From positions 1 to 42,146 of the IMG/VR virus record IMGVR_UViG_3300045988_179251: a stretch of DNA of 42,146 nt; one strand, 5' to 3'. The stretch is from a virus. The notes under the pieces are model-generated. The model did no database searches. It was not told the DNA's origin and saw only the letters and a list, made by a program, of their open reading frames with translations. Position numbers and translations under genes: made by a program. Below are positions 22,262 to 38,012 of the stretch, piece after piece (the stretch's first letter is position 1; every line of letters starts with the position of its first letter).

Positions 22262-22279
22262 CCTCCGCTATTCATAGAA

Positions 22280-22358: not shown

Positions 22359-22359
22359 T

Positions 22360-22845: not shown

Positions 22846-22852
22846 TCTATTC

Positions 22853-23905: not shown

Positions 23906-23923
23906 CTTTCTTCTCCTATTGGT

Positions 23924-23963: not shown

Positions 23964-23982
23964 AATCATGCGACCGGGTATG

Positions 23983-24573: not shown

Positions 24574-24621
24574 AATTATTGTGCTCCTGTGAATCGAGGG
24601 GTGAAAAGAATTGCGGTGGGG

Positions 24622-24735
24622 TCAGTTCTCGCTGTCGGCGGGCTTGCTGCGGAGCGCCTCACGAATTGCGTCGGCGGCGATAGCGAGAGTCTCGGTGGAG
24701 ACGCCACGGTCAGCGGTAACAGTGATCTTAGCCAT
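24622..24735 (-). CDS. 37-aa micro-ORF (MAKITVTADRGVSTETLAIAADAIREALRSKPADSEN)
   Basis: Not in the ORF track because it is under 60 aa. It fills the gap between two genes and is preceded by AGGAAGAGAGAAAACTATT-ATG, the same start context as neighbouring genes. Confidence 0.4.
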   Translation of the reverse strand: MAKITVTADRGVSTETLAIAADAIREALRSKPADSEN

Positions 24736-24763
24736 AATAGTTTTCTCTCTTCCTATGTTTTGG

Positions 24764-25516
24764 TTAGTGGCTAGTGATGTAATTGTGAATCTTGGTCATG
24801 CTCGGATTCCCCATTGCTGGCGGGAACCCGCGCGTCTGTTGCTTTGTTACAACGTTCGGTTTGCGAGTGTACAGTACTGGCACAGTGATTTCTTCCCCGT
24901 CACCATTGTCCACGTTCGCCCATTCCATGTAGCCGACGAAATTGAACAGGGCGGGGATGCGCTGCCCGGATTTCTGCCCCTCGAAAGACGGGGCGATGAA
25001 AACCTCTCCAGTGACCTCGCTGCTCTCGCGTGCGGAGTGTGTGATAGCAATGAATGAAATGTCGGGGGCGTCCAGGAACACACTGATCGCCTTCAACAGG
25101 GAATCGTATACCGCCCGCCATTTCGTCCAAGTATCATTCGACACGGCCTCATAATGGGTCAGGATGAGCTCCTGACACTTATCCAACGTATCGAACACGA
25201 CAGTCTTGTAGGGGAACCCCGCAAGATTACGCGCAATATTGTCACAAAGATTGGCGCAATCAACCCACTTGTCACAATGCACGACAGTAATGTTCTGCAG
25301 GTTCCCCCAATCCCGCACTGGGAGCGTGCCGGATTCGAAATCAACGTACAGGACGGGCGACATGTCGTCCACCTGTGACGCCGTGGCTGCGAGCGATGTT
25401 TTGCCCACACCGCTCACACCATGAATGAGCATATTGAAGTGATTATTCTGTTCCGGGTTCACGACTGTCATTCCGAGACGGGCAAGAGTGTCCTCAAAAG
25501 TCATGATATGTTTCAC
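24764..25516 (-). CDS. AAA_24 / Sak4-like RecA-superfamily ATPase
   Basis: Walker A is HGVSGVGKTS and Walker B is TVVFDTLD. Size is 250 aa. The context is a recombination module. Confidence 0.75.
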   Translation of the reverse strand: MKHIMTFEDTLARLGMTVVNPEQNNHFNMLIHGVSGVGKTSLAATASQVDDMSPVLYVDFESGTLPVRDWGNLQNITVVHCDKWVDCANLCDNIARNLAGFPYKTVVFDTLDKCQELILTHYEAVSNDTWTKWRAVYDSLLKAISVFLDAPDISFIAITHSARESSEVTGEVFIAPSFEGQKSGQRIPALFNFVGYMEWANVDNGDGEEITVPVLYTRKPNVVTKQQTRGFPPAMGNPSMTKIHNYITSH

Positions 25517-25519
25517 CTC

Positions 25520-26314
25520 CTAACCGTTGATAGTGTAGTTTTTGAATACTTCTGTGTGACGCTCGTGCGAGCAGTACCAGCATAGAGGGGACGATTGGAG
25601 ACCGTCAACACTGCTGTCATGTAACCTTGCTCTCTCCCAAATGTTCCGGAGTCTCTCCAGGGCCGCGAGCGCAACGTCCCGCCGCCACGGGAAAGAGAAC
25701 TCACAAATACTATCCGGCACGACCTCTACACTGCAGTCCCTTGGGAGAGTGACAATAGAACAGTGGGCCACCTCGTGTCCGAGTTGTGTGAGGCCGTACC
25801 CGTAGAGCATGATTTGAATGTAGTATTTACGAAATTGACCCCCTGCCGCCGTGTCGGCGAATCGTGGTAGACCGTTGTCCCATTTAATGCTCTTCCGGAA
25901 TGCGGAAATCTTTTTCCGCGAGAGCAGCTTCCAGTCTAGGACCGTCGCCGCCGCAATATCGAAGCGATCCACACTCCCAGAAATACGCCCATAGTCTTCA
26001 AGATCGCATACCTCTACTCTCTGCTCCACTAGAACATTCGGTTTGTTTCTTGTACGTGATTCCGCGAAAGCATGAAATGCGGTGCCCAGGAAAGGCGCCA
26101 GTGGCGTGCCCGTATTTTCCGTATTGTGCGGAATTCCGAGGAGTTTGTCGGCAATGCATCGTTCGCAATCGTCTCCGATCTCGCTTACGCCGATGCGCGT
26201 TTGCTTATCGCGCTCGGTTGGGGCGAAAACATTACTGACCGCTGTTGCGGCGGCCGGGCTCAAATTCAAACTTCTCCCCTTCCTGAATCGCGGCGATAGC
26301 GGCGAGTCTAACAT
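25520..26314 (-). CDS. PD-(D/E)XK nuclease, Cas4/RecB-like exonuclease (start uncertain)
   Basis: Motifs are SVDRFD...VLDWKL and YYIQIMLY, with cysteines CERC near the N-terminus and CWYC near the C-terminus. Possible starts are ATG 26314, TTG 26269 (after AGGAAGGGGAGA) or ATG 26392. Confidence 0.65.
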   Translation of the reverse strand: MLDSPLSPRFRKGRSLNLSPAAATAVSNVFAPTERDKQTRIGVSEIGDDCERCIADKLLGIPHNTENTGTPLAPFLGTAFHAFAESRTRNKPNVLVEQRVEVCDLEDYGRISGSVDRFDIAAATVLDWKLLSRKKISAFRKSIKWDNGLPRFADTAAGGQFRKYYIQIMLYGYGLTQLGHEVAHCSIVTLPRDCSVEVVPDSICEFSFPWRRDVALAALERLRNIWERARLHDSSVDGLQSSPLCWYCSHERHTEVFKNYTING

Positions 26315-26498
26315 CACGGTGAACCTCGATATCTCCGCTCGCAATGTCTTCAATGAAGAATAGTCTCGCGTCGCCGGCCGACATGATTTCATAGACCGTG
26401 CCGCCGAGCTCTTCTGCTCGCATTGCGGCTCGCTCGAGATTCGAGTAGACCCGGTAGTCGCCTTTCTGCGACGACTCCCAAACTAAGTAGACGCCCAT
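26232..26498 (-). CDS. Hypothetical protein
   Basis: 88-aa ORF preceded by TTAGGAAGAGAGAG. Confidence 0.55.
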   Translation of the reverse strand: MGVYLVWESSQKGDYRVYSNLERAAMRAEELGGTVYEIMSAGDARLFFIEDIASGDIEVHRDVRLAAIAAIQEGEKFEFEPGRRNSGQ

Positions 26499-26541
26499 TA
26501 GTGTTTTTACTCTCTCTTCCTAAATGTTGATTGATAGTGTG

Positions 26542-26760
26542 TTATTCGATAATAGTTGCTGTGAGGCCAGCCCGCTCCTCGATTGCCGTGGAAATGACTG
26601 CCGCATAGCATTGGATCCGCCAGATATTCTCCGATCGAATGCTGGGCACGTGCAGTTGCATTGTCTTGACGCCAAATTTCGTGGGCCATTTCAGGATGAT
26701 GGTGTGGCCGGCGATATCGTCAATCGTGGTGCCCTGCGTGATGCGCATAATATTTTTCAC
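26542..26760 (-). CDS. Hypothetical protein
   Basis: 72-aa ORF with an ATGA-type overlap to the upstream ORF. Confidence 0.5.
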   Translation of the reverse strand: MKNIMRITQGTTIDDIAGHTIILKWPTKFGVKTMQLHVPSIRSENIWRIQCYAAVISTAIEERAGLTATIIE

Positions 26761-27050
26761 TCCCCCGTCGCAATGAGCTCATAAATGTCGAGATTGTTAT
26801 TGGTGGCCATGCCGCGCACAATATTAATGTTGTCCGCCGTAACATGAATGACGTTAATGTCTGAGTGTCCATCGTCCACTGGGGCGACGATCAGGAAATT
26901 CCTGCCGGCCAATTCGCTGTCGTCGGATACGAGAATGTTCCGAATGGTGCCTGTCATGCGGCGTCGCACTAGATGAATGTTAGAGCTGATGAGTGTTTCT
27001 GTCTTCATGGCATCTACCGTACGTGCGTGGTGGTGGCGTACGCAACCCAT
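26757..27050 (-). CDS. Hypothetical protein (alternative start at 27008)
   Basis: 97-aa ORF downstream of the helicase gene. No motif recognised. Confidence 0.5.
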   Translation of the reverse strand: MGCVRHHHARTVDAMKTETLISSNIHLVRRRMTGTIRNILVSDDSELAGRNFLIVAPVDDGHSDINVIHVTADNINIVRGMATNNNLDIYELIATGE

Positions 27051-27073
27051 GCGGGCATGACGTCCATCACACC

Positions 27074-28468
27074 TTATATGAGGCCGCTCTCACGCAGACG
27101 CTCATACCCCGCCTCCAGCCTGGGCTCCACAGCCGTCACGTCAACAGTGCCCTCGCACTGCAAAAGAAAACGATTCACTCTCTTTGTTTGCCCCTTGCGA
27201 TTCAAGCGGGCAGACGCCTGCAAATTCAAAATCACACTATTATCCTCACTCAACCAAACCTCAGTATTGCAAACATTCTGCAGACCGTCAATCCCTTCGG
27301 CGGCAGCCGCAATAACGGAGCAGAGAATCCGCGGCCCATCGGGCTCCAAAAATCGTCGCCACTCACCCCGGTAAGCACTGGACAACTCGACGCTCTGATA
27401 GCCGGCATCAGCCAATCGTTTCCGCAACGGCGTCATGAATTTACGCGAATGGCACCACAGAATAACTTTCTCGTCTGGCGGTAGATCGGACAGAATATCG
27501 AGGGTGGCGTCAATCTTCGAGGATCCCCACTCCTCGAACTCCACATTATCGACCACGATCCTCAAGGGTCCGAGAGTGATCTGCCTGAGCCTTCCGTCGA
27601 GAACGGCGGCGGACGATGCCACGCTGGCCCCACCATCCATAACCGCCAAACGATGATCCACAAACTCCCGATACATCCTCTTCTGTTCACGACGCATCCC
27701 ACAAACGACACGTTGAACATTTACGGGAGGTAGATCACCGAAAACCTCACTCCCACGCATCGCAGACCAAATATCACCCACGGAATCACGGAGAGCGCCA
27801 GGATCCTTCTCGCCACCATAAATCCTGGCATACCGAGACGCTGCAAAAGGATTAAACTGAGAAACAAAAAACTCATCCGCAAACCGGTAGAAACTACGAT
27901 CAACACTCCCCGGGTTCAGAAACTTGAGTACCCCGTAAATATTGACGGGTTTATTGCCGGCAGGCGTGCCCGACAAACCAAGACGATACTTCGACTTCAA
28001 CGCCTTCACGGCCCGGAAAGACTGGGTTCTATGATTCGCGATACGATGAACCTCATCCACGACCACCATATCGAACAATTTCTTCGAGAAAGAAACGAAC
28101 GGCCACTTATCCGCTTCTACCGCCTTTCCCAGGGAAACGAGCAGCTCGAAATTAATAACCCACCAACCGCCCTCGCCGGCCAGCATGCCCTCAATGTTGC
28201 CGCGACCGGCCTTGGTAGTGCGAGACAGCACTTTCGCTTCCTGACCGGTGATGGTCTTAATACTGGCCTGCCATGACGGTATGACACGCTTCGGGCACAC
28301 AATGATGACTCGCCTGTCGGCGTCGAGTTTCTGTGCGACCCAGATTGCGCCGTATGTTTTGCCGCAGCCGGGCTCCCAAGCAAGCAATGCGCCACCGCCA
28401 TCTCGAATCGCGGTGACGGTACGGTTGATTTCTCTTTCCTGCGCCCCTGTGGGCTTAATGTTAATCAT
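27074..28468 (-). CDS. SNF2-family (DEAD/H-like) helicase
   Basis: Motif I is EPGCGKT, motif II is VVVDEVHRI, motif III is LSGTP and motif VI is LQASARLNRKGQ. 464 aa. Confidence 0.85.
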   Translation of the reverse strand: MINIKPTGAQEREINRTVTAIRDGGGALLAWEPGCGKTYGAIWVAQKLDADRRVIIVCPKRVIPSWQASIKTITGQEAKVLSRTTKAGRGNIEGMLAGEGGWWVINFELLVSLGKAVEADKWPFVSFSKKLFDMVVVDEVHRIANHRTQSFRAVKALKSKYRLGLSGTPAGNKPVNIYGVLKFLNPGSVDRSFYRFADEFFVSQFNPFAASRYARIYGGEKDPGALRDSVGDIWSAMRGSEVFGDLPPVNVQRVVCGMRREQKRMYREFVDHRLAVMDGGASVASSAAVLDGRLRQITLGPLRIVVDNVEFEEWGSSKIDATLDILSDLPPDEKVILWCHSRKFMTPLRKRLADAGYQSVELSSAYRGEWRRFLEPDGPRILCSVIAAAAEGIDGLQNVCNTEVWLSEDNSVILNLQASARLNRKGQTKRVNRFLLQCEGTVDVTAVEPRLEAGYERLRESGLI

Positions 28469-28553
28469 TGAAATTCGTCCAAACGATCACTAGTAGGCAA
28501 ATGGCGAGCAAGAACACTAGTAGTGTCACTTGTTTTCTCCTCTTTTCCGTATG

Positions 28554-28591
28554 ACGAACCCCGCCCCACAGGGTAATGGGACGGGGTTCGT
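28554..28591 (-). promoter_or_regulatory. 15-bp intercistronic hairpin (G-U pair only on the minus-strand RNA)
   Basis: ACGAACCCCGCCCCA pairs with TGGGACGGGGTTCGT. The C-A mismatch on + is a G-U pair on -. Downstream direct repeats CACTAGTAG lie at 28488-28496 and 28515-28523. Confidence 0.6.
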
Positions 28592-28600
28592 TCTGTCGGG

Positions 28601-28813
28601 TCAGTGGGTGATGGCGTGACGCTGCACAGCGTCCCAGTAGGCGTCCTCGTCAACGTCCACCACATAGTAGGGAGTGCCAGTAGCGGAGAAATACTGTCCG
28701 ATCACGTCATCGGCGATGTCAGCAACATCGTAGTCATCCACATTGTCCAGGGTAGGAATGATGTCGAACTCGACGACGTCGTTCCGAGTGCTGCGACGAG
28801 TGGTGATGTTCAT
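28601..28813 (-). CDS. Small highly acidic hypothetical protein
   Basis: The ATG at 28813 is preceded by GAGAAGAGAGAGAATC. The protein is 70 aa and rich in Asp (DNVDDYDVADIADDV...VVDVDEDAY). Confidence 0.5.
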   Translation of the reverse strand: MNITTRRSTRNDVVEFDIIPTLDNVDDYDVADIADDVIGQYFSATGTPYYVVDVDEDAYWDAVQRHAITH

Positions 28814-28914
28814 GATTCTCTCTCTTCTCTCCGTACTGTCACCGTCTCTCGGTGACGACCCTAGTATAGGCAGGCCATACACACCATCGTCAACCCGACG
28901 GGAGGTGACTCCGC

Positions 28915-29814
28915 TCACATCTCGAGGTGGAGGAGAGACAACGCCTCACCCACAGCCGCACTCACATCACCACCACACTCCAGCACCCTCATGCAATCGA
29001 ACGCCGTGTGCGCCCGGCCGTCCGCGAGTGGATCATCCGCATGATGTGAGAAGACCAGACCACTACTCAACAGTGTCACGCCTGGGGCCGTGTCGCCGCC
29101 ACGCGCATACCGCCACCGCCTCCCCACAGGCTCGTAAGGCCAACCGAACAAACCGACAAGATCATTAAAACTATACTTTGAATTGAACTCCCCGATCACC
29201 CCGCCATAGCCGCCATCGGGCACAGAAGACAAAGAAACATCATCATTCTTCTCCTCGTACCCGATATTCTCCAACCACTTATCAACATTCAAACGGGCAC
29301 CATCAATGAGCCAATGACGCACCCTCAAACCAAGACGATGCGACGGCAGGAAAAAAGCTCGGGACGCCTCCGCACACGACCCATCCCACTGGGCCACAGG
29401 CCCCAGCACACTGAAGCACGTCCGGGCGATCGCCTCACACTCTCCTACGGTCATGTTGCGAGTGCACGGCAGAACAACACGGAAGCGCGGGGACGGGAAA
29501 GACGACGACGCCGTCTCCCACACAATACCGGCAAGATTCGCAGCCCGCATACGGTCCCCGACGAAATCTTTCCGCGACCCATGATCCGCATCCAAAACGA
29601 TAGCGGACCGGGACACAAAATTTCTTTTCTGCCGCCTACCCCCCGAAAGAATGCCAGCGAAAAAAGCGGGAGCGTCATTCTTCTCACACCTTGAGGGCGC
29701 CTCACACAAGGCAGCAAAATCGTTAAGGTTTACGCTAGTGGCACGCCACCCTGTGATGGAGCGAACACTGCCCGCTACCATCACAGGGAAACGCACCCCG
29801 AAAACATCACTCAC
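28915..29814 (-). CDS. Primase-polymerase (AEP superfamily prim-pol)
   Basis: IVLDADHG supplies the DxD motif. The C-terminal GLVFSHHADDPL...AHTAFDCMRVLECGGDVSAAVGEAL resembles phage prim-pol C-terminal helical bundles (recollection). Confidence 0.65.
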   Translation of the reverse strand: MSDVFGVRFPVMVAGSVRSITGWRATSVNLNDFAALCEAPSRCEKNDAPAFFAGILSGGRRQKRNFVSRSAIVLDADHGSRKDFVGDRMRAANLAGIVWETASSSFPSPRFRVVLPCTRNMTVGECEAIARTCFSVLGPVAQWDGSCAEASRAFFLPSHRLGLRVRHWLIDGARLNVDKWLENIGYEEKNDDVSLSSVPDGGYGGVIGEFNSKYSFNDLVGLFGWPYEPVGRRWRYARGGDTAPGVTLLSSGLVFSHHADDPLADGRAHTAFDCMRVLECGGDVSAAVGEALSLLHLEM

Positions 29815-31378
29815 TGCACGATGGTTCCGCTATCTGATCCCGCAGAATCGCCTCCACGAGATCATTATCCACAATCGCACCTTCCGTCCGGAATTTCACG
29901 CCCCGACGAAGAATATACTGCCGATACTCCTCCACGCTCCGCGGAGACAAATTCTTCGCCTCCAAAACCTGATACAAACGAGTCTCAGTCGGCGGATTAC
30001 TACTGAAATCGTCCACCATACGCGTCAAGTCCGGGACGAAAACATAGTCGATCATTTTCAGCGCGTCGGGCAGCCAGAAATCGACGGCCAGACTGAAAGC
30101 TTTCCGAACCGCAGACGATGACACGCTCATCTGCTGCTCGAAGAGAGACAGAATAGCGGCCACGCGCATAATATGATTCCCCATGCGATCAATGACCGCT
30201 TGTACCGCCCGCTGGAAAGGCGACTCACGGGCCGCCTCCCCGGCCCAGGCCCGCACCGTTTCTACCCAAACATTCCGGGCCGACTCGGTCACGGTCATAG
30301 TCATTGGCGTGTTGACAGGCCAAAACTCGGTGGCACACGTGACCGTGCCACGGAATTCATGCTGCATCATACCCAACATTGTCGAAATGCGCTCGGAAGC
30401 ATGCTCAACAAAACCATCCCCACCATGCGCGCTCAAGTCATTGTTGGTGACCCATCCGAAAGACGACGGATCGGACCGACGGTCCTCCTCATCCAAGGCG
30501 AAAAGAATGCGCGGGCCCCACCCAGTCTCAAACAAAGACTGAGACATGCTATCGACTACGTCGCCGAGAATACCGGTGCCGCAAAAAGCAAGAGAATGAG
30601 GAACCCTCTCACTGTCCGCACGCTTCACACCATCGTCACCGACGCGCACAGACTCGACCGTTTTGCCCGAGTAGACGTCGGTCAGGAATCCGATGAGACC
30701 ACTACGATAACCCTCCCCCTGTGACGCGGAATACATGTTCTGCAATTCGTCTACAAACATAATAGACGCACCGCCAGGACGCTGCGCCATCCGCAAATTC
30801 AGACCTTCAGCCGTAACATTAGACCCGAACAAAACATTCGCCATAAGAGACCGCTCACACGGGCTATTACCAATAGTATTCAACAAATCCTTACGATCAG
30901 CCTCAAACTCGGTGATGCGATTATTGATATCGTCCCGCTCCGTGCGATATTCCTCAATATCAATACGCCCACTCCGCCTTTCCAGAGATTCCAGGCGACG
31001 GTACAGCATGCGGAGTGCTAAATCACACTCCCGCACAGCCGCCAAAGACGCCGACGAATCCCACCTGAACGCGCCCACACAGTCGTCGAAAAAACTACGC
31101 ACCAAAGACTGAGCCGTCGTCTTCCTCGACAAGGTGGACGCACCCAGGCAGTGCGAGTACAAGGTCAACGGCACCATGTTCTGCGCGTTCGCAGACAAAT
31201 GAGTCCTCGCAGACAGCGGCGCGGACACCATCGTCAAGAAAGTCGTCCACAGGAAACGAGGAGGCGTCTCCGGTGACCTGGACTGCAAATAGCCGACAAT
31301 CCTGTCAGCGAACCAATCATAGTGCGCTTTCCCCGTCGGTGGCAGAAACTCGTAATCCGTAATCCTCTCAACGCTCAA
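29807..31378 (-). CDS. DUF3987-like replicative helicase-associated protein
   Basis: 523 aa. It has a P-loop-like LGASTLSRKT and FVDELQNM. It is adjacent to and overlaps the prim-pol gene, which is the usual pairing. Confidence 0.6.
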   Translation of the reverse strand: MSVERITDYEFLPPTGKAHYDWFADRIVGYLQSRSPETPPRFLWTTFLTMVSAPLSARTHLSANAQNMVPLTLYSHCLGASTLSRKTTAQSLVRSFFDDCVGAFRWDSSASLAAVRECDLALRMLYRRLESLERRSGRIDIEEYRTERDDINNRITEFEADRKDLLNTIGNSPCERSLMANVLFGSNVTAEGLNLRMAQRPGGASIMFVDELQNMYSASQGEGYRSGLIGFLTDVYSGKTVESVRVGDDGVKRADSERVPHSLAFCGTGILGDVVDSMSQSLFETGWGPRILFALDEEDRRSDPSSFGWVTNNDLSAHGGDGFVEHASERISTMLGMMQHEFRGTVTCATEFWPVNTPMTMTVTESARNVWVETVRAWAGEAARESPFQRAVQAVIDRMGNHIMRVAAILSLFEQQMSVSSSAVRKAFSLAVDFWLPDALKMIDYVFVPDLTRMVDDFSSNPPTETRLYQVLEAKNLSPRSVEEYRQYILRRGVKFRTEGAIVDNDLVEAILRDQIAEPSCSE

Positions 31379-31689
31379 TTATTCTCCGCCTCCACGTCAA
31401 CAAGAAAACTACTGAAAGCGTCAATAATCTCATCGCCGTTGAAAGTATAGCCGACGTCGAATATAGGGCCCCAATAACGGTTCGCCTGCTCGAAAATCGT
31501 CGCCTTGTAGCCGCGCGCAGTATCCGCCTCGAAAATAAACCTATGCCCGGGCGATGCGACAACAATGTGGATGCTGTTGTTCCAGGCGCTTACTTCCAGG
31601 CCGAGCGAATCATTCCCGCCCTTGCTGGCGTAATTCTTGCACGCCTCGGTGACATGCTTCAGGAATTCCCAGTCGAATAGCTTGATCAT
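31375..31689 (-). CDS. Hypothetical early protein
   Basis: The ATG at 31689 forms an ATGA overlap with the upstream stop. The longer track ORF is low-complexity upstream of this point. Confidence 0.55.
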   Translation of the reverse strand: MIKLFDWEFLKHVTEACKNYASKGGNDSLGLEVSAWNNSIHIVVASPGHRFIFEADTARGYKATIFEQANRYWGPIFDVGYTFNGDEIIDAFSSFLVDVEAENN

Positions 31690-31997
31690 TTGTCCCCCCA
31701 CAGTTTTGTCTTGATTTCGGCGAGCAGTTCCCGAAGCTCCCATGCTCCCTCTCTTCCCTTCACAGTTGTTATTGTTTCGTTCGTTCCAGTGTTTCGAATG
31801 GTCACCGAATACTCGCCTCCCACAATGTTGAGAGTGCACCCGTATCGTTTTCCGGTGACGTCCAAGTAGAGGACAGGCAGGTCACTGTCTACCCTGGCGT
31901 CCTCGCCGACGTCTAACAGGATGGACTCGCAGCGCGAGTCATTGAGCATTTCAGCCACGAACTGGGTCACGACCGAGCGCAGCTCATCGTCGATCAC
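31686..31997 (-). CDS. Hypothetical early protein
   Basis: 103-aa ORF with 4-nt overlaps on both sides. Confidence 0.6.
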   Translation of the reverse strand: MIDDELRSVVTQFVAEMLNDSRCESILLDVGEDARVDSDLPVLYLDVTGKRYGCTLNIVGGEYSVTIRNTGTNETITTVKGREGAWELRELLAEIKTKLWGDK

Positions 31998-32329
31998 GAC
32001 TCCCGCCTTTCCATCATGCCAGCCAGCTCCATGAAGCGATTCACGGCATTGACGATGGTGTCCCTCTCAGCGCCGTTCTCGTCCAAAATGACATGATTCG
32101 ACAACTGAACGACGCGAACCCGCCACCTCTCATCTTTCGTGACAACAATTCTGAAAACGGTCCTATCAACAGGGTTCCTGGCCGTCGCCTTGAAAAGAAC
32201 ACCGAAAAGACGGCCGCCCTCATTGTTGCCGTGCAAGGCGGTGATCGAACACTGAGGCCACTGGGCGAAATCGCCAACACAACTAGCAAGAAAAGCGAAC
32301 ACCGCCCTATCGACAGCAGAGTCACTCAC
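31994..32329 (-). CDS. Hypothetical early protein
   Basis: 111-aa ORF with 4-nt overlaps on both sides. Confidence 0.6.
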   Translation of the reverse strand: MSDSAVDRAVFAFLASCVGDFAQWPQCSITALHGNNEGGRLFGVLFKATARNPVDRTVFRIVVTKDERWRVRVVQLSNHVILDENGAERDTIVNAVNRFMELAGMMERRES

Positions 32330-32604
32330 TTGTCGTCCGCCTTACTGCGGTTCGCCGCGACAATCAAAGCGCGATGGACGAACTCACCAACACTCTCCGG
32401 AGGAATCGCGATGCTCTTCCGCTTAACATGCCTTGCCCTCACCGTGTCGCCGGCGACCACAATACGGCAAGTGCTGCCGATAGTGATGATGCCGCCGTCA
32501 TAAATCTTACGGGCAGGCGCATGCACATTGAACTCGTGACGGCGCCCGTCATTATTCCACTCGCAGACCGCCTGGGAGACAACCGTTCCGAAAACTGTAC
32601 CCAT
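32326..32604 (-). CDS. Hypothetical early protein
   Basis: 92-aa ORF preceded by TTAGGAAGAGAGAAACATTACT-ATG. Confidence 0.6.
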   Translation of the reverse strand: MGTVFGTVVSQAVCEWNNDGRRHEFNVHAPARKIYDGGIITIGSTCRIVVAGDTVRARHVKRKSIAIPPESVGEFVHRALIVAANRSKADDK

Positions 32605-32669
32605 AGTAATGTTTCTCTCTTCCTAAATACTGTGATGAATACTACTATTCACTGTCGAGTGGCGTGTAC

Positions 32670-33161
32670 TTAAATGTCGGAGCCGATCACCTCCTCCACA
32701 GGCACGCCCACCAAATCACACAGATCAGCCAGACTGTCTCTGGCGTCAGACTGAGCGCACTCCCACACTGGCGAACCTTTCCTACTGTCCCTCATTTCTT
32801 CCAGGCAAAGAATGAAATCGTACGCCAGACGGGCACTCTCCATCTTCACCTCGTGCCGCTTAATGTGCTTGTGAATCCATCTAGCCGCAACAGCCGTGTT
32901 CTCACCCTTGGTGGCAATCTTTCTCCACCACGCATCCACTGCCGTGTTTTTCGGGCTGAAATACCATGTCGTCGGCCTACCGTCGTCGAAAACATACGTC
33001 TCGACAGTGCCGCTCTTAGTATCCCAAATAATGGCGGTGAAACCATCACTATCGTGATAGTAGGAAGTGGCAGACGGCATATTCTCCCGAATAAGCCCCA
33101 TCTCAACGTCCCGGTCAGTTACCCCCTCAATGTTGGGGTCGTCACATTCAAACCATAGCAT
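32670..33161 (-). CDS. Hypothetical early protein
   Basis: 163-aa ORF preceded by AGGAAGAGAGAGAGGAAGAGAATA-ATG. Confidence 0.6.
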   Translation of the reverse strand: MLWFECDDPNIEGVTDRDVEMGLIRENMPSATSYYHDSDGFTAIIWDTKSGTVETYVFDDGRPTTWYFSPKNTAVDAWWRKIATKGENTAVAARWIHKHIKRHEVKMESARLAYDFILCLEEMRDSRKGSPVWECAQSDARDSLADLCDLVGVPVEEVIGSDI

Positions 33162-33199
33162 TATTCTCTTCCTCTCTCTCTTCCTGGAATTGCGGCTGG

Positions 33200-34114
33200 T
33201 CAGACGATCACACTGTCAGGAATCTCCCGGATCCGAGCGCAGAACTGCCCCCACACCTCCTCCACGGCATCCGACCGGTCAAGAGAATACAACCTACCGG
33301 GGGAAAACTCTGCACCACCCCCGTTCGCGCTCACAACAATCTGCCCAATAATCTCACCATTGAAATAGGCGACAATCAAAGAATCCTCCGCCATAGCGAG
33401 AGTGATACCACAAGCGTCCGCCACCGAAACGAGACCATCCATGACCGAGGCGCCCACAACAAGACGGTCAAACATTTCCTGCACCTTATCCGCAAGGTTC
33501 TCAGTACAAGTCACACTAACATTGGTCACCCAGCCGAGAGTTTCAATATTGTCCACGGTCAACGCGACCTCACCGGAAACGAACATCATCTCACCAATCG
33601 GCTTCGTGTAAATGTGGAACCTTGAAGAATGCGTGAGCTGCCTCGCCGGCCTCCACGAGACAGCAGCTTCAATGGGAGTGCGGGAATGCTCAACGACAGG
33701 ATCATGGGAGAGAGCGTCCACAAAGTGGTCCCAGATGAGGCACTTCGACACGTCCTCACCCGAAAACTTGCCAACGCCCAGCTCGACGCCGCTTCGCCTC
33801 ATACCAACCATCATGGTGCCAATCGTCGACCCGCCGGACGACACTGTCAGAGTCGAAAACTCGTCCCCGTCGATATAGAGGCCGTGCTCATCGGCCAGGG
33901 TAAGAATGCGATCGTAAATTTTCGCCATACACACCATGGAAGCCAGCGCCTCATTAGCGGAACAACGGTCGTCCGGAAATTCGGAGAGGTAGACGGGCAC
34001 AAGGCGGTCGGACAAAAGAATGTCCTCCCTGTCCATGATCTGCGTTGTGCCGTCCAACCAAATACCACGCGACCAATTCGTAACGTCAATGGTGAAATGC
34101 GCGTCATAAAACAT
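33200..34114 (-). CDS. Hypothetical early protein with an apparent internal duplication
   Basis: The ATG at 34114 is preceded by AGGAAGAGATACATA. Two roughly 90-aa halves share a pattern (see findings). Confidence 0.6.
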   Translation of the reverse strand: MFYDAHFTIDVTNWSRGIWLDGTTQIMDREDILLSDRLVPVYLSEFPDDRCSANEALASMVCMAKIYDRILTLADEHGLYIDGDEFSTLTVSSGGSTIGTMMVGMRRSGVELGVGKFSGEDVSKCLIWDHFVDALSHDPVVEHSRTPIEAAVSWRPARQLTHSSRFHIYTKPIGEMMFVSGEVALTVDNIETLGWVTNVSVTCTENLADKVQEMFDRLVVGASVMDGLVSVADACGITLAMAEDSLIVAYFNGEIIGQIVVSANGGGAEFSPGRLYSLDRSDAVEEVWGQFCARIREIPDSVIV

Positions 34115-34158
34115 TATGTATCTCTTCCTGATACTCGTGTTGCCAGAATTGCGGGGGG

Positions 34159-34341
34159 TTACCGGACTCCTATCGCCCCCCACAGGACCCAGATAGCCGC
34201 CACGACACCGAGCGTCCCGATCACGGCGAAGCATGATGCGGTCAGGTAGATGATGGCGGCCAGGATGATTTCGCTGCTCCGTCTCAACGGGCGGCGGGTC
34301 GCGGCGTTGGTGCGCCTTGGTGCCGCATGCCTCATGCTCAT
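34159..34341 (-). CDS. Small membrane protein (first gene of the leftward arm)
   Basis: The ATG at 34341 is preceded by AGAGAAGGAACC. The protein is 60 aa with a basic N-terminus and a long hydrophobic segment (IILAAIIYLTASCFAVIGTLGVVAAIWVLWGAI). Confidence 0.5.
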   Translation of the reverse strand: MSMRHAAPRRTNAATRRPLRRSSEIILAAIIYLTASCFAVIGTLGVVAAIWVLWGAIGVR

Positions 34342-35121
34342 GGTTCCTTCTCTTTCTTCGTGGTGGTCTTGGTTGTGGTGCGGGGCTGCTGTCTTGCTCC
34401 CGATAGCCTTAACTCTAGGGGCCCGACGCTCGCCCGTCCACCCCACCTCGGTGAGACGTCCGCCACACTGTGGGGTTTGGTTTCCGACGTCGTCGGCCCA
34501 CCGCCCCAGAGCGCCATGAAAGGCGGACGGGTGATGGGGCGCATGCGGCCACGTCCGCCGTCCCGCGCGATCACGAGACGAAAGACGCAATGCCGGCCCA
34601 GCTCAGTCAAACCTTTCAGATTGGGTGGGCTGGTATGTCATTGCCGTCCTCTGTCACATCGCCTCACATGACGTTAATACCATTCTCTTCCAGTACACCC
34701 CCGATCTCCTCAACTGTCCCGAGGACGACGAGGCCCCACCTTCGACGACGAGGGCGGGGCCTCAGTGCGTCTACTGCGGAAGGGCGGTGTGTGATGGGGG
34801 CATGTGGTGCCGGCCACCAGGGTACTGATCTTTCACAGTTTCTGTTAACCTCCCGTTCATCTTGTTCACTTCCCGTTTACTTTCCCACACAAGTGGGTTG
34901 TTTGCTAGCAACCGGGGTTCTAGGGTGAAAACACCCGTTTGTGTTACTACAATATAGGTGCGTGTTGTCACAGTTTCTGTTCATGTGGCAAGGGATCGTG
35001 TCAGGGTGTTCCTTGTGATTGCAGCGTTTAGTCCCTGTTGCGGTTGTTTTGTTGGCAGTGTTTGTTGCGGTGACTTTAGTCCCGTATGCTACACTCGAGT
35101 AGACGAATCGTCGAAGACGAT

Positions 35122-35186
35122 CTGCGGCGCAGCCGCTGAGGAGCCCTAGCGACGCAAGCGAGCGTCAGCGCCGCAGGGTGTTTTCG
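35122..35186 (+). terminator. Terminator-like branched stem-loop with a U-tract
   Basis: CTGCGGCGC (35122-35130) pairs with GCGCCGCAG (35168-35176). An inner helix is GACGC/GCGTC. The element is followed by GGTGTTTTCG. Confidence 0.4.
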
Positions 35187-35215
35187 AAGAGCTCGCCACT
35201 GTGTTGGGCCCAACC

Positions 35216-35290
35216 TATACTCTTAAAAGAGTACTAGAATTAGACACTGTCTAACGCAACTAGACGGTGTCTAATTATGGAACACGTGTT
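35216..35290. promoter_or_regulatory. Cluster of operator-like palindromes in an AT-rich patch
   Basis: TATACT at 35216-35221. TACTCTT-AA-AAGAGTA at 35218-35233. TTAGACA-C-TGTCTAA at 35240-35254. CTAGACGGTGTCTAA at 35260-35274. AACACGTGTT at 35281-35290. Confidence 0.45.
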
Positions 35291-35401
35291 ATAACGTAAT
35301 TAATGTTCGATGGTGAACATGGTGATCGTTAACAGTGAACAGTGTGTTTGTGGTAGAAGTAACACACGCCGCATTAGGTGGACGCGCACACGAACACAGT
35401 A

Positions 35402-35461
35402 GGCGGCTGTCGTGCTACGTGCGTGCTCGCAGGGCTGCGCGCGCACTACACGACACCCGCC
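35402..35461 (+). promoter_or_regulatory. Conserved nested hairpin, copy A (followed by a polypurine tract 35467-35530)
   Basis: The outer stem is GGCGGCTGTCGTG/CACGACACCCGCC. The inner stem is GTGCGTGC/GCGCGCAC around the loop TCGCAGGGCT. The core is shared with copy B. Confidence 0.55.
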
Positions 35462-35633
35462 ATACCAGAACAAAGAAAGAAAGGAAGGAAGAAAAGCGGA
35501 AGAGGAAGGAAAAGAGGAAGAAGAACAAGGAGTAGTGTTAGACGGTGGAGGCGCTCGTCTCGCTGACGCTGCGACGCGCCACCACCTAACACCAACAAGA
35601 AAGACGAGAAGAAGAGAGCAGCAGTGAGCAGCA

Positions 35634-35978
35634 GTGAGCAGAACAAGCACACGCGAACACAAACAATTCAGAAAACAAGTACTCGCCAGAGCACAAGCCA
35701 TGGGCATCACACACTGCCCAGCATGCGGAGTAAAACTCCAATACAACAATGATGGACAACGCAAACTCAACAGTGCCGAGGCAGACCACATAATCCCAGC
35801 ATCACTAGGCGGAACCAACCACCCAGACAACGGCAGAGTATTATGCGCCAAATGCAACAGCAGACGAGGCAACGGACGAGGAGGCAAAGGCAGAGCACGC
35901 CACTACCAAAAAAACAAGGAGGAAAGAGACAGGCTACCCATCGCAGTCATGCCCACACGACACAGTGACACATGGTAG
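35634..35978 (+). CDS. HNH endonuclease (packaging-associated type)
   Basis: CPACG ... ADHIIPASLGGTNHPDNGRVLCAKCNSRRGN is a clear HNH motif with a zinc-binding CxxC pair. It lies upstream of the terminase. The GTG start is uncertain. Confidence 0.8.
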   Translation: MSRTSTREHKQFRKQVLARAQAMGITHCPACGVKLQYNNDGQRKLNSAEADHIIPASLGGTNHPDNGRVLCAKCNSRRGNGRGGKGRARHYQKNKEERDRLPIAVMPTRHSDTW

Positions 35979-36069
35979 ACACACACCACAGCCATTCCAA
36001 CAAAGAGAAAGGCGGGGAATAGAACAGAACAAAAGAGAAGACAAGACAAAGCAACAAGAAGAACAGGAT

Positions 36070-36126
36070 GGTGTTCGGGGATAACGTGCGTGCTCGCAGA
36101 GCTGCGCGCGCACTACCCCGAACACC
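36070..36126 (+). promoter_or_regulatory. Conserved nested hairpin, copy B (followed by a polypurine tract 36131-36175)
   Basis: The outer stem is GGTGTTCGGGG/CCCCGAACACC. The inner stem and loop are the same as copy A (loop TCGCAGAGCT). Confidence 0.55.
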
Positions 36127-37271
36127 AATAACAAGAAAGGAAGAGGAAGAGGAAGACGGAGAAGACAAGCAACGAGACCATCACACCCGTCGCACCACCG
36201 CCATTCCACAACAACACAACCCTGCCGCATTAACGCAACCCCAAACCAACAATGCTATGACAACAAACACAAAGAAGAGAGAGAAAAAAGAGAAACAAAC
36301 CACAATTCCACACACCACGACAACACACCCCCACCGCCCTTCTACAACACAACACCACACGTCACACCATAAGACAATGCGCACACCACAGTAAACAACA
36401 CGCACTGAAACACACGGCACACAATAGCGGTAGGCCGACAACAAACACCACCACCATCCACCCCCCACACGAACACTGCAACACACAAGACAGGAAAAGA
36501 GCAAGACAACACAAGAGGAACAAGACAATACGAAGGGGAAGCGGGACAACACGAGGTGCCGGCCCCGTTCCGAAACACCGGGCATCACAGCACACACCAC
36601 ACCCCGCCATCCAACGGGCCCACCACGCGAACGGAATGGGGACGCCAACATTCGAAAGGGGGACGCCAACACACGGACGGGGATACCAGTAACACAGCCG
36701 CCCTCCCATCACCATGCCACCCACCATCCGCCATGCCACCCCACCACCCACGACGGCCCCACCCACCACCACGACAAGGGGGGGGGCGATCGGAGGATAC
36801 CCCACCACACGAAGACCACGGACAGACACGCACCCGCACACCGCATCACCCGGCAACGAACAGCATACGACACGATCGCAGTACTGATGAGTACTGCACT
36901 GGGATGGGCGGGGCACGGGCCGGGCTGCACGCACTGGGCGGACAGCAGCAGCACACCCACCGCCATTCCACAACAGCACACCGATGAGAGATGGACACCA
37001 TCCGCTGTCCCACCTCGCACTGATCGCGTTCACACAACCAACGAACAACAATGATCAACAATGACCAACAATCAATGTTCAATGATTGAACAACAATCAA
37101 TGAACGATGAACATGATGATGATCAATCATCATCATGATGAACACAATGAACATGATGATGAACACATGATGATGATGTGATGCATGACATGCATACCAA
37201 TACCATGCACCATGCATGGTGCCAACGCATGCCGCAAAGGCAACACAACGCACAAACGCACAAATGCATAA

Positions 37272-37303
37272 AAATGTTATAAAACAAAAGAAATGTTATA
37301 AAA
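37272..37303. repeat. Two AT-rich 13-mers AAATGTTATAAAA (37272-37284 and 37291-37303)
   Basis: Exact direct repeat inside the most AT-rich stretch of the window (about 37255-37330). Confidence 0.6.
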
Positions 37304-37549
37304 ACATGCAAAAAAATTCAAAGGCACGAACCAAACAACGGCGTTCAAAAAACCATGGCAACATTTCGAGGCGAACACAAAGGGGGCCCCAACACCATAA
37401 GGGATCCCTTAAACGTGGGACCCACATCACAAAACAAGGCGGAGACCAGACAAAACGAGACGCACACCACACAATTCATGTGATGGGGGCCACTCCCCCT
37501 CCCCCATCCGGCCGCGAACACCCCGAAGGTCTGCCCATCTCTCCCTGCT

Positions 37550-37688
37550 TGTGGAAAACCCTGTGGATAACTCCAGTAACCCAGACCACAATGTGACCAT
37601 CATCATGTGGAAAGCTCCCAAACCTGTGGAAAACCCTGTGGAAAACTCTCCAGGTTGTGGACAACCCTGTGGAAAACCTTGTGGACAA
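37550..37688 (-). promoter_or_regulatory. Array of eight DnaA-box-like 9-mers, all in one orientation (candidate origin, DnaA-titration site or terminase recognition repeats)
   Basis: + strand TGTGGAAAA at 37550, 37625, 37637 and 37668. TGTGGATAA at 37562. TGTGGAAAG at 37606. TGTGGACAA at 37656 and 37680. Reverse complements are TTTTCCACA, TTATCCACA, CTTTCCACA and TTGTCCACA. Confidence 0.6.
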
Positions 37689-37730
37689 CCTCACCAGACG
37701 TGACCGACACCACCGCATATAATAGAAAAC

Positions 37731-38012
37731 ATGACAACCCACACAAACACCACAATCACTGTATACGAACCAAACAGCCCCACCCCCATAACCGACGCCA
37801 CAAACACAAACAACCCCACACTCATACGCCAAGCACTTGCACACAAAATCGCCACCGTCATAGACGACCCAAGAACAGGCGACACAGCACTCACAAAACT
37901 CACAGCACAACTCATACAAATCACAGACCAACTAGCCACCACACAAAACGAAAACACACACCCGGACACCACCGACATTCCAAACGAAACACAAACCTGG
38001 GACGGCATCTAA
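37731..38012 (+). CDS. Hypothetical protein in the small-terminase position
   Basis: 93-aa ORF ending 3 nt before terL. The central part (LIRQALAHKIATVIDDPRTGDTALTKLTAQLIQITDQL) looks helical and protein-like. There is no clear Shine-Dalgarno and the region is compositionally biased. Confidence 0.35.
   Translation: MTTHTNTTITVYEPNSPTPITDATNTNNPTLIRQALAHKIATVIDDPRTGDTALTKLTAQLIQITDQLATTQNENTHPDTTDIPNETQTWDGI

What the first reader, a model, noticed from the sequence alone, without database searches (positions are those of the whole stretch)
35402..36175. Two copies of a nested hairpin with covarying outer stems, each followed by a polypurine tract, flanking the HNH gene
Copy A (35402-35461) and copy B (36070-36126) share a 33-nt core, ACGTGCGTGCTCGCAG(G/A)GCTGCGCGCGCACTAC, which forms an 8-bp inner stem (GTGCGTGC/GCGCGCAC). 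The outer stems have unrelated sequences yet are complementary in both copies: GGCGGCTGTCGTG/CACGACACCCGCC versus GGTGTTCGGGG/CCCCGAACACC. That is compensatory covariation and argues for a selected structure rather than a simple duplication. Each hairpin is followed after about 6-10 nt by a 45-65-nt GA tract (35467-35530 and 36131-36175). There is no U-tract on either strand, so these are not ordinary terminators. Candidate roles are a cis-acting RNA (antitermination element, processing or stability site), an extruded DNA cruciform for packaging or replication proteins, or triplex-prone DNA.
Basis: seen in the sequence. Interest (0 to 1): 0.7.

Follow-up and report, generated by a model that had tools for sequence, protein, structure and literature searches.

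The report
Twin conserved hairpins bracketing phage HNH gene
Two near-identical, very stable hairpins, each followed by a thymine-free purine run, bracket a small nuclease gene near the end of an uncultured human oral phage genome; they are conserved and keep their base pairing in about 45 related phages, most likely as RNA signals that shape the nuclease's messenger RNA, but this function is untested.

Summary
Hairpins A (35402-35461) and B (36070-36126) share an exact 33-nt core, with none expected by chance. They are the two most stable single hairpins in the 42-kb window, and the only ones followed by T-free GA tracts.

About 45 closely related oral-metagenome phages (TerL 96-98% identical) carry both copies at the same places. 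The core never changes except for two loop bases. The basal stem of A varies with compensatory changes: 7 pairs, 32 cells against 7.4 in shuffles, 0 of 500 shuffles as high. GA tracts keep their composition (83-92% purine) but not their sequence or length, and they are non-coding.

Contig ends place cos at 37521-37531. An invariant TATAAT lies 7 nt before the terS ATG. HNH is therefore probably its own transcription unit, with A in the 5' UTR and B about 90 nt past the stop codon.

My best reading (about 0.4) is that these are + strand RNA elements read by a specific factor, which process or stabilise the HNH mRNA in the manner of an RNase III site plus polypurine 5' stabiliser. The rivals are - strand terminators, elongation control, and DNA-level cruciform or R-loop roles. 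There is no Rfam match and no CRISPR-repeat match. H-DNA mirror symmetry is not enriched.

The parts
35402..35461 (+). Hairpin A. Basal stem 35402-35414 pairs with 35449-35461 (13 bp, one C.C mismatch). A short asymmetric internal loop follows (CUAC / UA). The invariant apical module is the 8-bp stem 35419-35426 / 35439-35446 with a U.G wobble, the UC bulge 35427-35428, the 3-bp stem 35429-35431 / 35436-35438, and the loop GGGC 35432-35435.
   Evidence: Covariation in 40 relatives. Covariance-model score 87 bits.
35467..35530 (+). Purine tract A: 95% A+G and no T. In relatives it is 49-94 nt long and 83-92% purine. The sequence is about 50% conserved and the length has no 3-nt periodicity.
35535..35592 (+). 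Hairpin C, a third long hairpin (-30.1 kcal/mol, z = -4.4) that is 99-100% identical in all relatives. It is not a member of the A/B family. A -10-like TAGTGT (35533-35538) and the operator half-site TTAGACGGTG lie at its 5' foot.
   Evidence: Covariance-model score only 10 bits.
35634..35978 (+). HNH endonuclease gene, 114 aa from GTG 35634. The full length is conserved at 88-96% without gaps.
36070..36126 (+). Hairpin B. Basal stem 36070-36080 pairs with 36116-36126 (11 bp, plus T36069-A36127). It carries the same invariant apical module (36086-36113) with loop GAGC. Its basal stem is invariant in sequence across relatives.
   Evidence: Covariance-model score 64 bits.
36131..36175 (+). Purine tract B: 89% A+G and no T. 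It is followed from about 36160 to about 37040 by an A/C-rich, G-poor, T-poor non-coding stretch.
35193..35221 (+). Putative rightward promoter (TCGCCA-17-TATACT) in a 98-100% conserved block, about 175 nt upstream of hairpin A. This is a consensus match only.
35240..35275 (.). Two operator-like palindromes, TTAGACACTGTCTAA and TAGACGGTGTCTA, just downstream of the putative rightward promoter.

Best explanation
**What it is.** A and B are two copies of one cis-acting RNA element that folds in the + strand transcript of a small HNH transcription unit. This unit lies near the right end of a cos-type phage genome. A lies in the long 5' UTR. B lies about 90 nt after the HNH stop codon.

**Anatomy.** Each element is an irregular helix of 25-26 bp.
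- The apical half is fixed in sequence and is probably what a specific factor reads. It consists of an 8-bp stem with a U.G wobble, a UC bulge, a 3-bp stem and an NNGC loop.
- The basal 11-13 bp act only as a clamp and are free to change as long as they pair.
- Each hairpin is followed by a U-free purine tract. Such a tract cannot provide a terminator U-tail and pairs strongly with the CCUCCUUUCU 3' end of 16S rRNA.

**Most likely mechanism.**
1. The helices are cut by a double-strand-specific endoribonuclease of the RNase III type, or bound by such a factor.
2. The 3' hairpin remnant then protects the upstream RNA.
3. The purine tract, now near the new 5' end, shields the downstream RNA from 5' decay.
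4. Together these set the amount and lifetime of mRNA for a potentially harmful nuclease.

**Shown here.** The structure, its conservation and covariation, the tract composition, the non-coding status of the surroundings, and the position relative to HNH, cos and terS.

**Inferred.** That the + strand is the folding strand, that the folding molecule is RNA, and that the element is cleaved and stabilises the transcript.
For: - **Structure is selected.** 96% of cells are paired. Seven pairs change on both sides: 32 cells against 7.4 in shuffles, with 0 of 500 shuffles as high. Slid registers reach at most 66% pairing.
- **Core invariance.** The core is unchanged in 41 A copies and 43 B copies apart from two loop bases, one compensatory C-G to U-A change (L062) and a few single changes. 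The adjacent tracts are only about 50% identical.
- **Argument for the + strand.** The T of the T.G pair is invariant in all aligned A and B copies, in a strand that otherwise loses T. A T-to-C change would give a Watson-Crick pair on both strands. Keeping T therefore fits a required U.G on the + strand, which would be an A.C mismatch on the - strand.
- **Sense strand.** HNH is on the + strand. The A/C-rich, T-poor composition follows the sense strand in the leftward leader as well: 34960-35085 is 40% A and 32% C on the - strand.
- **Not + strand terminators.** No + strand tail is U-rich (0 of 41 for A, 0 of 43 for B). The phage's real terminators have A and U tracts.
- **Tracts are non-coding with conserved composition**. 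They pair with the anti-Shine-Dalgarno tail at about -10 kcal/mol.
- **HNH is probably its own unit.** TATAAT is invariant 7 nt before the terS ATG in 58 of 58 relatives.
- **Precedents.**
  - A polypurine sequence stabilises processed katG mRNA in mycobacteria (PMC2358910).
  - A polypurine sequence acts as a 5' mRNA stabiliser in B. subtilis on phage SP82 mRNA (Hue et al. 1995, cited in PMC7509114 and PMC3997798). That this SP82 segment carries an RNase III cleavage site is from my own memory of the paper.
  - RNase III sites between phage T7 early genes are cited from my own knowledge.
Against: - **No transcript data.** The promoters are consensus matches only.
- **Mismatch pattern points the other way.** In the variable pairs, mismatches are almost all C.A or A.C on the + strand (38 cells against 1 T.G). 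These would be G.U wobbles on the - strand. The depletion of T and G on the + strand predicts the same pattern, so this test is inconclusive rather than supportive.
- **Energies do not choose a strand.** Mean folding energy is -40.5 kcal/mol on the + strand and -40.2 on the - strand.
- **Anti-SD pairing is not specific.** It is no stronger than the tract composition alone gives (z = 0 to -0.5).
- **Core invariance exceeds RNase III needs.** RNase III does not require a 33-nt invariant sequence, so a dedicated and unidentified factor may be involved.
- **Covariation could be mutational.** Complementary changes in a DNA quasi-palindrome can also arise by template switching, without selection on RNA.
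Confidence: 0.4

Rival explanations
1. A and B are factor-independent terminators or insulators for leftward (- strand) transcription. On that strand each GC-rich hairpin is followed by a U/G-rich tail (UUGUGUUUU-like) and preceded by a polypyrimidine tract. They would stop transcripts that start nearer the right genome end from running antisense through HNH and into the regulatory region.
For: - In relatives, 38 of 41 A copies and 29 of 43 B copies have at least 5 T in 8 nt right after the stem on the - strand.
- Nearly all stem mismatches (38 of 42 non-Watson-Crick cells in the variable pairs) would be G.U pairs on the - strand.
- A hairpin plus a U-rich tail is the commonest kind of intergenic hairpin.
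- A -35/-10-like TTGAAT-17-TAACAT lies on the - strand near 37294-37322 in a conserved AT-rich block (read by eye).
Against: - The - strand is about 50% T throughout this region. The tail of B is at background level and that of A only slightly above it.
- In the window itself neither tail passes the terminator scan.
- No - strand gene or conserved ORF lies to the right of B.
- Terminators do not normally keep a 33-nt sequence invariant. Here they would also keep an A.C mismatch and a GA bulge that one transition could repair.
- The scan found no promoter on the - strand.
Confidence: 0.17
2. A and B are + strand RNA sites that control elongation rather than decay. In this reading they are protein-dependent attenuators, pause sites, or recruitment sites for an antitermination factor. 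The closest analogues are lambda nut boxB and HK022 put. The factor would let RNA polymerase cross the long untranslated, C-rich, G-poor region after B, which looks like a Rho loading zone.
For: - An invariant irregular hairpin with a bulge and a wobble is typical of protein-recognised RNA.
- The two copies lie on one transcript. The first is about 175 nt from a putative promoter.
- 36160-37040 is 32-60% C and 8-20% G, with little T.
- No alternative pairing partner exists in the purine or A/C flanks, so the hairpins are constitutive. This fits a binding site rather than a riboswitch-like attenuator.
Against: - There is no Rfam match to any known antitermination RNA, and no boxA-like partner was identified.
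- terS has its own invariant TATAAT next to its ATG, so read-through from HNH into the late genes is not needed.
- No N-, Q- or LoaP-like protein was recognised among the genes scanned.
Confidence: 0.15
3. The elements act as DNA. They would be extruded cruciforms or single-strand hairpins, next to polypurine-polypyrimidine tracts that favour R-loops or triplexes. In this reading they serve replication initiation, recombination between the two direct copies, or slowing of the packaging motor 1.4-2.1 kb before cos.
For: - The same two loop bases are found in A and B in 27 of 38 genomes against 8 expected. This shows the two DNA sites exchange information.
- The hairpins lie in a 2.3-kb mostly non-coding right end with extreme strand asymmetry.
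- The arms are rich in alternating purine-pyrimidine runs.
- The phage encodes a Sak4-like annealing protein, an exonuclease and a primase/helicase.
- Purine-rich RNA on a pyrimidine template gives very stable hybrids (general knowledge).
Against: - Mirror symmetry, which H-DNA needs, is not enriched.
- The conserved bulge and wobble asymmetries make poor cruciforms.
- No recombinase, HUH or Rep protein, or integrase was found.
- Gene conversion alone explains the loop concordance.
- The cos site and its flanking repeats show no similarity to the core.
Confidence: 0.15

Closest known systems
RNase III processing hairpins of phage mRNAs (T7 early-region R sites; the phage SP82 early RNA site followed by a polypurine 5' stabiliser, Hue et al. 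1995)
   Same: Both are long irregular helices of about two turns, with a conserved internal loop or bulge, placed before and after a gene in a phage transcript. In SP82 the stabiliser is a polypurine, Shine-Dalgarno-like sequence; that it lies just downstream of an RNase III cut site is from my memory of the paper. A related polypurine stabiliser is documented in an actinobacterium (katG, PMC2358910).
   Different: No cleavage has been shown here. The tracts are far longer (45-94 nt against about 10 nt). The 33-nt core is invariant and duplicated exactly. Tract B is not followed by a gene for 1.6 kb. There is no sequence similarity to the known sites.
Lambda nut (boxA/boxB) and HK022 put antitermination RNAs
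   Same: Both have two near-identical copies of a structured RNA element per genome, conserved in sequence, acting in cis on the transcript that carries them.
   Different: nut and put copies lie on two divergent transcripts, each just after its own promoter. Here both copies are on one strand, 667 nt apart, flanking a gene. The hairpin is much longer than boxB and is a single stem, unlike the two stems of put. No boxA was found and there is no Rfam hit.
Intrinsic terminators, including long-stem terminators (PMC10325885) and 3' protective hairpins of Rho-terminated transcripts
   Same: Both are very stable GC-rich hairpins downstream of a gene (B). On the - strand there is a U/G-rich tail. 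B is followed by a C-rich, G-poor stretch on the + strand.
   Different: There is no U-tract on the sense strand. An identical copy sits in the 5' UTR. The sequence is invariant, which terminators do not show. The phage's own terminators look different (15172-15216).
Non-B DNA modules (cruciform plus H-DNA or R-loop-prone polypurine tracts; R-loop origins such as ColE1 and the T4 origins oriF and oriG)
   Same: Both combine an inverted repeat with a homopurine-homopyrimidine tract. The purine-rich strand is the RNA-like strand.
   Different: The tracts lack mirror symmetry beyond chance. There is no origin evidence at this site. The covariation tolerates only mismatches of the G.U type.

Membership tests
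Intrinsic (Rho-independent) terminator | GC-rich hairpin immediately followed by a U-tract on the transcribed strand | tested here: not met
   On the + strand, 0 of 41 A copies and 0 of 43 B copies have a U-rich tail. The 3' flank is T-free purine. Neither hairpin is called by the terminator scan on either strand in the window.
Intrinsic (Rho-independent) terminator | The same feature, read on the - strand | tested here: inconclusive
   38 of 41 A copies and 29 of 43 B copies have at least 5 T in 8 nt on the - strand. That strand is about 50% T locally, and no - strand gene lies upstream of the hairpins.
RNase III processing site | About 20 bp or more of mostly continuous double-stranded RNA, often with an internal loop, within a transcript | tested here: met
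   25-26 bp with an internal loop, a UC bulge and a U.G wobble. Helix length is kept in both copies and across relatives. That the + strand is transcribed is inferred from the orientation of HNH only.
RNase III processing site | Cleavage by RNase III in vivo or in vitro | not testable with these tools
   No RNA data are available. This needs end mapping or an in vitro assay.
Polypurine / STAB-SD 5' mRNA stabiliser | Purine-rich sequence complementary to the 3' end of 16S rRNA | tested here: inconclusive
   The best duplex with GAUCACCUCCUUUCU is about -10 kcal/mol in every tract. This is no stronger than in composition-matched shuffles (z = 0.0 for A, -0.5 for B). The 16S tail is assumed from Gram-positive consensus because the host is unknown.
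Polypurine / STAB-SD 5' mRNA stabiliser | Lies near the 5' end of the mature RNA and lengthens its half-life | not testable with these tools
   Needs 5' end mapping and decay measurements.
nut / put processive antitermination RNA | Family sequence and structure (boxA plus boxB, or the two-stem put fold) | tested here: not met
   No Rfam family matches at the gathering threshold or at E up to 1. The element is a single 25-bp stem.
CRISPR repeat mimic (solitary repeat unit / RNA anti-CRISPR) | Near-identity to a CRISPR repeat of a host genome | tested here: not met
   The 28-nt core with free loop bases has no exact match in one genome for each of 185,579 bacterial and archaeal species. Near matches were not searched.
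Single-strand DNA hairpin sites of mobile elements (IS200/IS605 ends, integron attC) | An associated HUH transposase or integron integrase, and variable presence of the flanked cassette | tested here: not met
   No such gene was recognised in the window. All of the roughly 45 relatives recovered through their HNH gene carry HNH between both hairpins.
H-DNA (intramolecular triplex) tract | Homopurine-homopyrimidine mirror repeat with long arms | tested here: not met
   The tracts are homopurine. However, the best mirror arms average about 7 nt and match shuffled tracts (z = 0.14 and 0.71).

The most novel reading that the evidence does not exclude
The two hairpins are structure-specific DNA sites, folded as single strands or cruciforms, whose central dinucleotide must match. 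This would resemble the crossover bases of site-specific recombination sites or integron attC sites. They would mark the HNH gene as an exchangeable cassette, or serve as the entry point of a transcription-primed (R-loop) origin next to the genome end. The match of the variable loop bases between A and B in 27 of 38 genomes would then be a functional requirement and not a by-product of gene conversion.
Probability: 0.05. Interest if true: 0.8.

Novelty: new variant of a known kind. Interest (0 to 1): 0.45.

Why it matters
If the RNA reading is right, this is a compact and well-delimited example of how a phage of an oral actinobacterium controls a packaging-associated nuclease after transcription. 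It has a recognition module with fixed sequence, a free clamp stem, and long U-free purine tracts.

It would add a new structured RNA family. The roughly 40 natural stem variants are ready for testing. It would also extend the polypurine-stabiliser idea from Bacillus and Mycobacterium to phages.

It further draws attention to an odd 2.3-kb genome end that is almost free of T on one strand and evolves far faster than the neighbouring genes. The function remains untested and the element is confined to one tight clade, so its reach is limited for now.

Tried and rejected
- **Rfam.** The region at E up to 1 and the whole window at gathering thresholds gave nothing relevant.
- **tRNA and tmRNA.** None were found.
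- **Cultured phages.** There is no DNA similarity for the 2.8-kb region or for the hairpin region.
- **Looser core pattern in IMG/VR.** It returned about 120 loci. Nearly all were chance hits inside GC-rich coding sequence (an LLAELRA-type peptide). Every genuine hairpin carried the same core.
- **Distant HNH loci (L073-L079).** These have no comparable hairpins.
- **Rothia phage Spartoi.** It is one of the two closest TerL relatives (about 49% identity, like Arthrobacter phage MrSmee) and has an HNH gene at its right end. It has no large non-coding region.
- **TerL-based search.** It gave only the same clade (93-98% identity) plus one relative at 40%. No intermediate relatives are available to test covariation in the core.
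- **CRISPR-repeat mimic.** There is no exact match in 185,579 species genomes.
- **Coding GA tracts.** Rejected, because tract lengths show no 3-nt periodicity.
- **ORFs between B and terS on either strand.** Rejected. They are 25-45% identical with many gaps, frameshifts and stops.
- **Selection for anti-SD pairing beyond composition.** Not found.
- **H-DNA mirror symmetry.** Not found.
- **Choosing the strand by folding energy.** No difference between strands.
- **Choosing the strand by wobble type.** Confounded by the T and G depletion of the + strand.
- **Hairpin C as a third family member.** Rejected at 10 bits, E = 1.4.
- **Exact look-up of the HNH protein.** Not on record.
Full report
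**1. The observation**

The sequence is as described. The 33-nt core occurs exactly twice, at 35417-35449 and 36084-36116 on the + strand, with none expected by chance.

- Hairpin A spans 35402-35461. Its basal stem has 13 positions, one of them a C.C mismatch.
- Hairpin B spans 36070-36126. Its basal stem is a perfect 11 bp, plus one extra T-A pair.
- In both, the basal stem leads through a small asymmetric internal loop into the same apical module. This module is an 8-bp stem with a U.G wobble, a UC bulge, a 3-bp stem and a 4-nt loop.
- The predicted energies are -40.4 and -39.5 kcal/mol (z = -3.9 and -6.7).
- In a scan of the whole window these are the two most stable single hairpins. They are also the only stable hairpins followed by purine-rich sequence: 94% and 86% purine in the next 50 nt.
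- The tracts at 35467-35530 and 36131-36175 contain no T at all.
- A covariance model built from the A copies finds only A (87 bits) and B (64 bits) in the window.

**2. The genomic setting**

The window looks like a complete, circularly permuted genome of about 42 kb from a siphovirus-like phage.

- The + strand carries terS, TerL, portal, protease and capsid through to lysis. The - strand (15236-34234) carries primase/helicase, an exonuclease, a Sak4-like protein and a dCTP deaminase.
- The closest cultured TerL relatives are only about 49% identical. They come from Arthrobacter, Rothia and Propionibacterium phages.
- Contigs encoding an identical TerL protein come from human oral metagenomes.
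- No integrase was recognised.

Contig ends in relatives locate the physical genome ends.

- Several contigs end at ...GCGAACA (window 37520).
- Several begin at TGCCCATC... (window 37532). In one case this start is fused directly to an Illumina adapter.
- The 11 nt between them, CCCCGAAGGTC, are therefore the probable 3' cohesive end.
- Eight TGTGGAWAAC repeats follow at 37550-37689. An invariant CATATAAT then lies 7 nt before the terS ATG in 58 of 58 relatives.

The packaging and structural operon therefore very likely has its own promoter, probably producing a leaderless mRNA.

HNH (35634-35978) thus sits in a separate small unit at the right end of the genome, 1.5 kb from cos. Everything between HNH and terS is non-coding. 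ORFs there are 25-45% identical among relatives, with gaps, frameshifts and stops. HNH and terS, by contrast, are 84-97% identical without gaps.

**3. Relatives and covariation**

- An exact-core scan of IMG/VR returned 27 loci.
- An HNH protein search returned 45 close relatives.
- A TerL search showed that they form one tight clade at 93-98% amino-acid identity.
- All relatives carry both hairpins at the same places.

Across 41 A copies and 43 B copies the core is unchanged apart from:
- the first two loop bases (GG, GA, AA, AG, TG, CA, TA);
- one compensatory C-G to U-A change in the inner stem (L062);
- one loop insertion;
- a few single changes.

The basal stem of B never varies. The basal stem of A varies a great deal while still pairing. 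On 40 distinct sequences:
- 96% of cells are paired;
- 7 pairs change on both sides;
- 32 cells carry double changes, against 7.4 in shuffles, with 0 of 500 shuffles as high;
- slid registers reach at most 66% pairing.

This holds in a region where neighbouring non-coding columns are 10-60% identical. The structure, and separately the core sequence, are therefore under strong constraint.

**4. The purine tracts**

- In relatives, tract A is 49-94 nt long and 83-92% purine.
- Its sequence is poorly conserved and its length has no 3-nt periodicity, so it is non-coding and selected for composition.
- Short direct repeats are enriched, which suggests growth by slippage. Mirror symmetry is not enriched, which argues against selection for H-DNA.
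- The tracts pair with the Gram-positive 16S 3' tail at about -10 kcal/mol. This is exactly what their composition gives and no more.

**5. Which strand folds, and as what**

Three tests bear on this question.

- *Folding energy.* It does not discriminate: -40.5 kcal/mol on the + strand against -40.2 on the - strand.
- *Mismatch type.* In the variable pairs, 38 non-Watson-Crick cells are C.A or A.C on the + strand, which would be G.U on the - strand. Only 1 is T.G. This would normally point to the - strand. However, the + strand is strongly depleted of T and G, and that bias generates the same mismatches. The test is therefore inconclusive.
- *The invariant T.G pair.* A T-to-C change there would follow the compositional trend and give a Watson-Crick pair on both strands, yet it is never seen. 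This fits a required U.G wobble in a + strand RNA and fits poorly with a - strand or duplex-DNA function.

Other points favour the + strand.
- HNH is on the + strand.
- The A/C-rich, T-poor composition also marks the sense strand of the leftward leader at 34960-35085.
- On the + strand the hairpins cannot be ordinary terminators. No relative has a U-tail, purine RNA on a pyrimidine template gives a strong hybrid, and the phage's real terminators carry A and U tracts.

On the - strand the tails are U/G-rich: 38 of 41 for A and 29 of 43 for B reach 5 T in 8 nt. That strand is about half T here anyway, and nothing conserved lies upstream of the hairpins on that strand.

**6. Mechanism**

I commit to the following reading. 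A and B are + strand RNA elements of the HNH transcript. A specific factor reads their invariant, irregular apical module, and the basal stem clamps it.

Their form is about two helical turns with an internal loop. They sit before and after a small gene, and a purine tract follows each at once. The closest match is an endonucleolytic processing site of the RNase III type combined with a polypurine 5' stabiliser.

- A polypurine stabiliser acting on a processed mRNA is documented in mycobacteria (PMC2358910).
- A polypurine sequence also acts as a 5' mRNA stabiliser in B. subtilis on phage SP82 mRNA (Hue et al. 1995, cited in PMC7509114 and PMC3997798). That this SP82 segment carries an RNase III cleavage site is from my memory of the paper.
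- The T7 comparison is from my own knowledge.

The likely purpose is tight control of a nuclease mRNA. Only the anatomy and its conservation are shown here. Transcription, cleavage and stabilisation are inferred. I put this at about 0.4.

**7. Rivals**

- Leftward terminators or insulators: about 0.17.
- Elongation control through a bound factor, with the C-rich, G-poor stretch after B as a possible Rho zone: about 0.15.
- DNA-level roles (cruciform, R-loop, recombination, packaging): about 0.15.
- The remainder covers a duplicated quasi-palindrome with no function, maintained by template switching and gene conversion.

The loop bases agree between A and B in 27 of 38 genomes against 8 expected. 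The two copies therefore exchange sequence. Gene conversion is the simplest cause, and the phage encodes an annealing protein and an exonuclease.

**8. Comparison with known families, and novelty**

- No Rfam family matches.
- No cultured phage has similar DNA.
- No sequenced bacterial or archaeal species genome carries the core, which rules out an exact CRISPR-repeat mimic.
- No transposase or integrase accompanies the element.

It works most like a phage mRNA processing and stability module, but it cannot be filed as a member of any curated family. I rate it as a new variant of a known kind. It is a well-supported, clade-restricted structured element with some unusual features:
- two copies kept in concert;
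- a fixed core with a free clamp stem;
- long U-free tracts;
- a setting in a nearly T-free, fast-evolving genome end.

Interest is moderate because the function is untested and the element is confined to one clade.

Noticed in passing
window 37505-37540: Probable cos site. Several related contigs end at ...GCGAACA (37520). Several begin at TGCCCATC (37532), one of them fused to an Illumina adapter. The 11 nt CCCCGAAGGTC (37521-37531) between them are likely the 3' cohesive end. The surrounding 32 nt are nearly invariant in 63 relatives.
   Followed up: yes
window 37550-37689: Eight direct copies of TGTGGAWAAC, at 12-nt spacing within each sub-cluster, lie just inside the left genome end and upstream of terS. 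They are probably terminase small-subunit binding sites (the cosB equivalent). The motif is also the reverse complement of a DnaA-box-like TTWTCCACA.
   Followed up: partly
window 37718-37733: TATAAT is invariant while the 7 nt between it and the terS ATG vary freely, in 58 of 58 relatives. This looks like a promoter for a leaderless late mRNA and fits an actinobacterial host.
   Followed up: partly
window 35193-35320: A switch-like region. A putative rightward promoter (TATACT, 35216-35221) and a putative leftward promoter (TATAAC on the - strand, about 35289-35294) face each other. Two palindromic operators, TTAGACACTGTCTAA (35240-35254) and TAGACGGTGTCTA (35261-35273), lie between them. The half-site TAGACGGTG recurs at the foot of hairpin C.
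   Followed up: partly
window 35085-35240: This block is 94-100% identical in all relatives and has no conserved ORF. It holds a branched hairpin (35116-35185, -34 kcal/mol) followed by GGGTGTTTTCG on the + strand. It may be the terminator of a small + strand RNA starting after TACAAT (34948-34953), antisense to the leftward leader.
   Followed up: no
window 35462-37040: There is extreme strand asymmetry. The + strand is nearly T-free (AT skew up to 0.67), first GA-rich and then A/C-rich (C 32-60%, G 8-20%). Positions 36280-36520 are hypervariable (10-27% column identity) among phages whose TerL is 96-98% identical. The cause is unknown.
   Followed up: partly
window 35991, 36200, 36962, 37974; relatives directly 3' of hairpin A: The + strand motif GCCATTCCAMA recurs: 7 matches in the window against 1.9 expected, 4 of them in this region. 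In many relatives it overlaps the 3' arm of hairpin A (CCCGCCATTCCACAAA).
   Followed up: partly
window 37040-37260: This block is 76-99% identical across relatives and consists of CAATGA, CATGATGA and ATGCAT repeats. It is followed by an AT-rich stretch (37260-37320) with two AAATGTTATAAAA repeats. The 62-aa Cys/His-rich ORF on the - strand is broken by stops and frameshifts in relatives, so the conservation is at the DNA level. It may be origin-like or promoter DNA.
   Followed up: partly
window 15161-15176, 22319-22334, 22343-22358: The perfect palindrome TGTTTCACGTGAAACA occurs three times, each next to a canonical terminator hairpin. It is probably a regulator binding site.
   Followed up: no
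L065 (start), L068 (end), L063, L039, L214, L247: Metagenome assemblies often break inside the repeated hairpin core, or carry chimeric A and B flanks at contig ends. Some contig ends retain sequencing adapters or fold-back artefacts at cos. Contig ends at the hairpins are therefore assembly artefacts and not genome ends.
   Followed up: yes
window 15951-16469 (- strand) and the whole window: The phage encodes a dCTP deaminase-like protein and a DUF3310 protein. No integrase or recombinase was recognised. No relative of the hairpin core was found in 185,579 species genomes, which is consistent with a lytic or non-integrating lifestyle.
   Followed up: no
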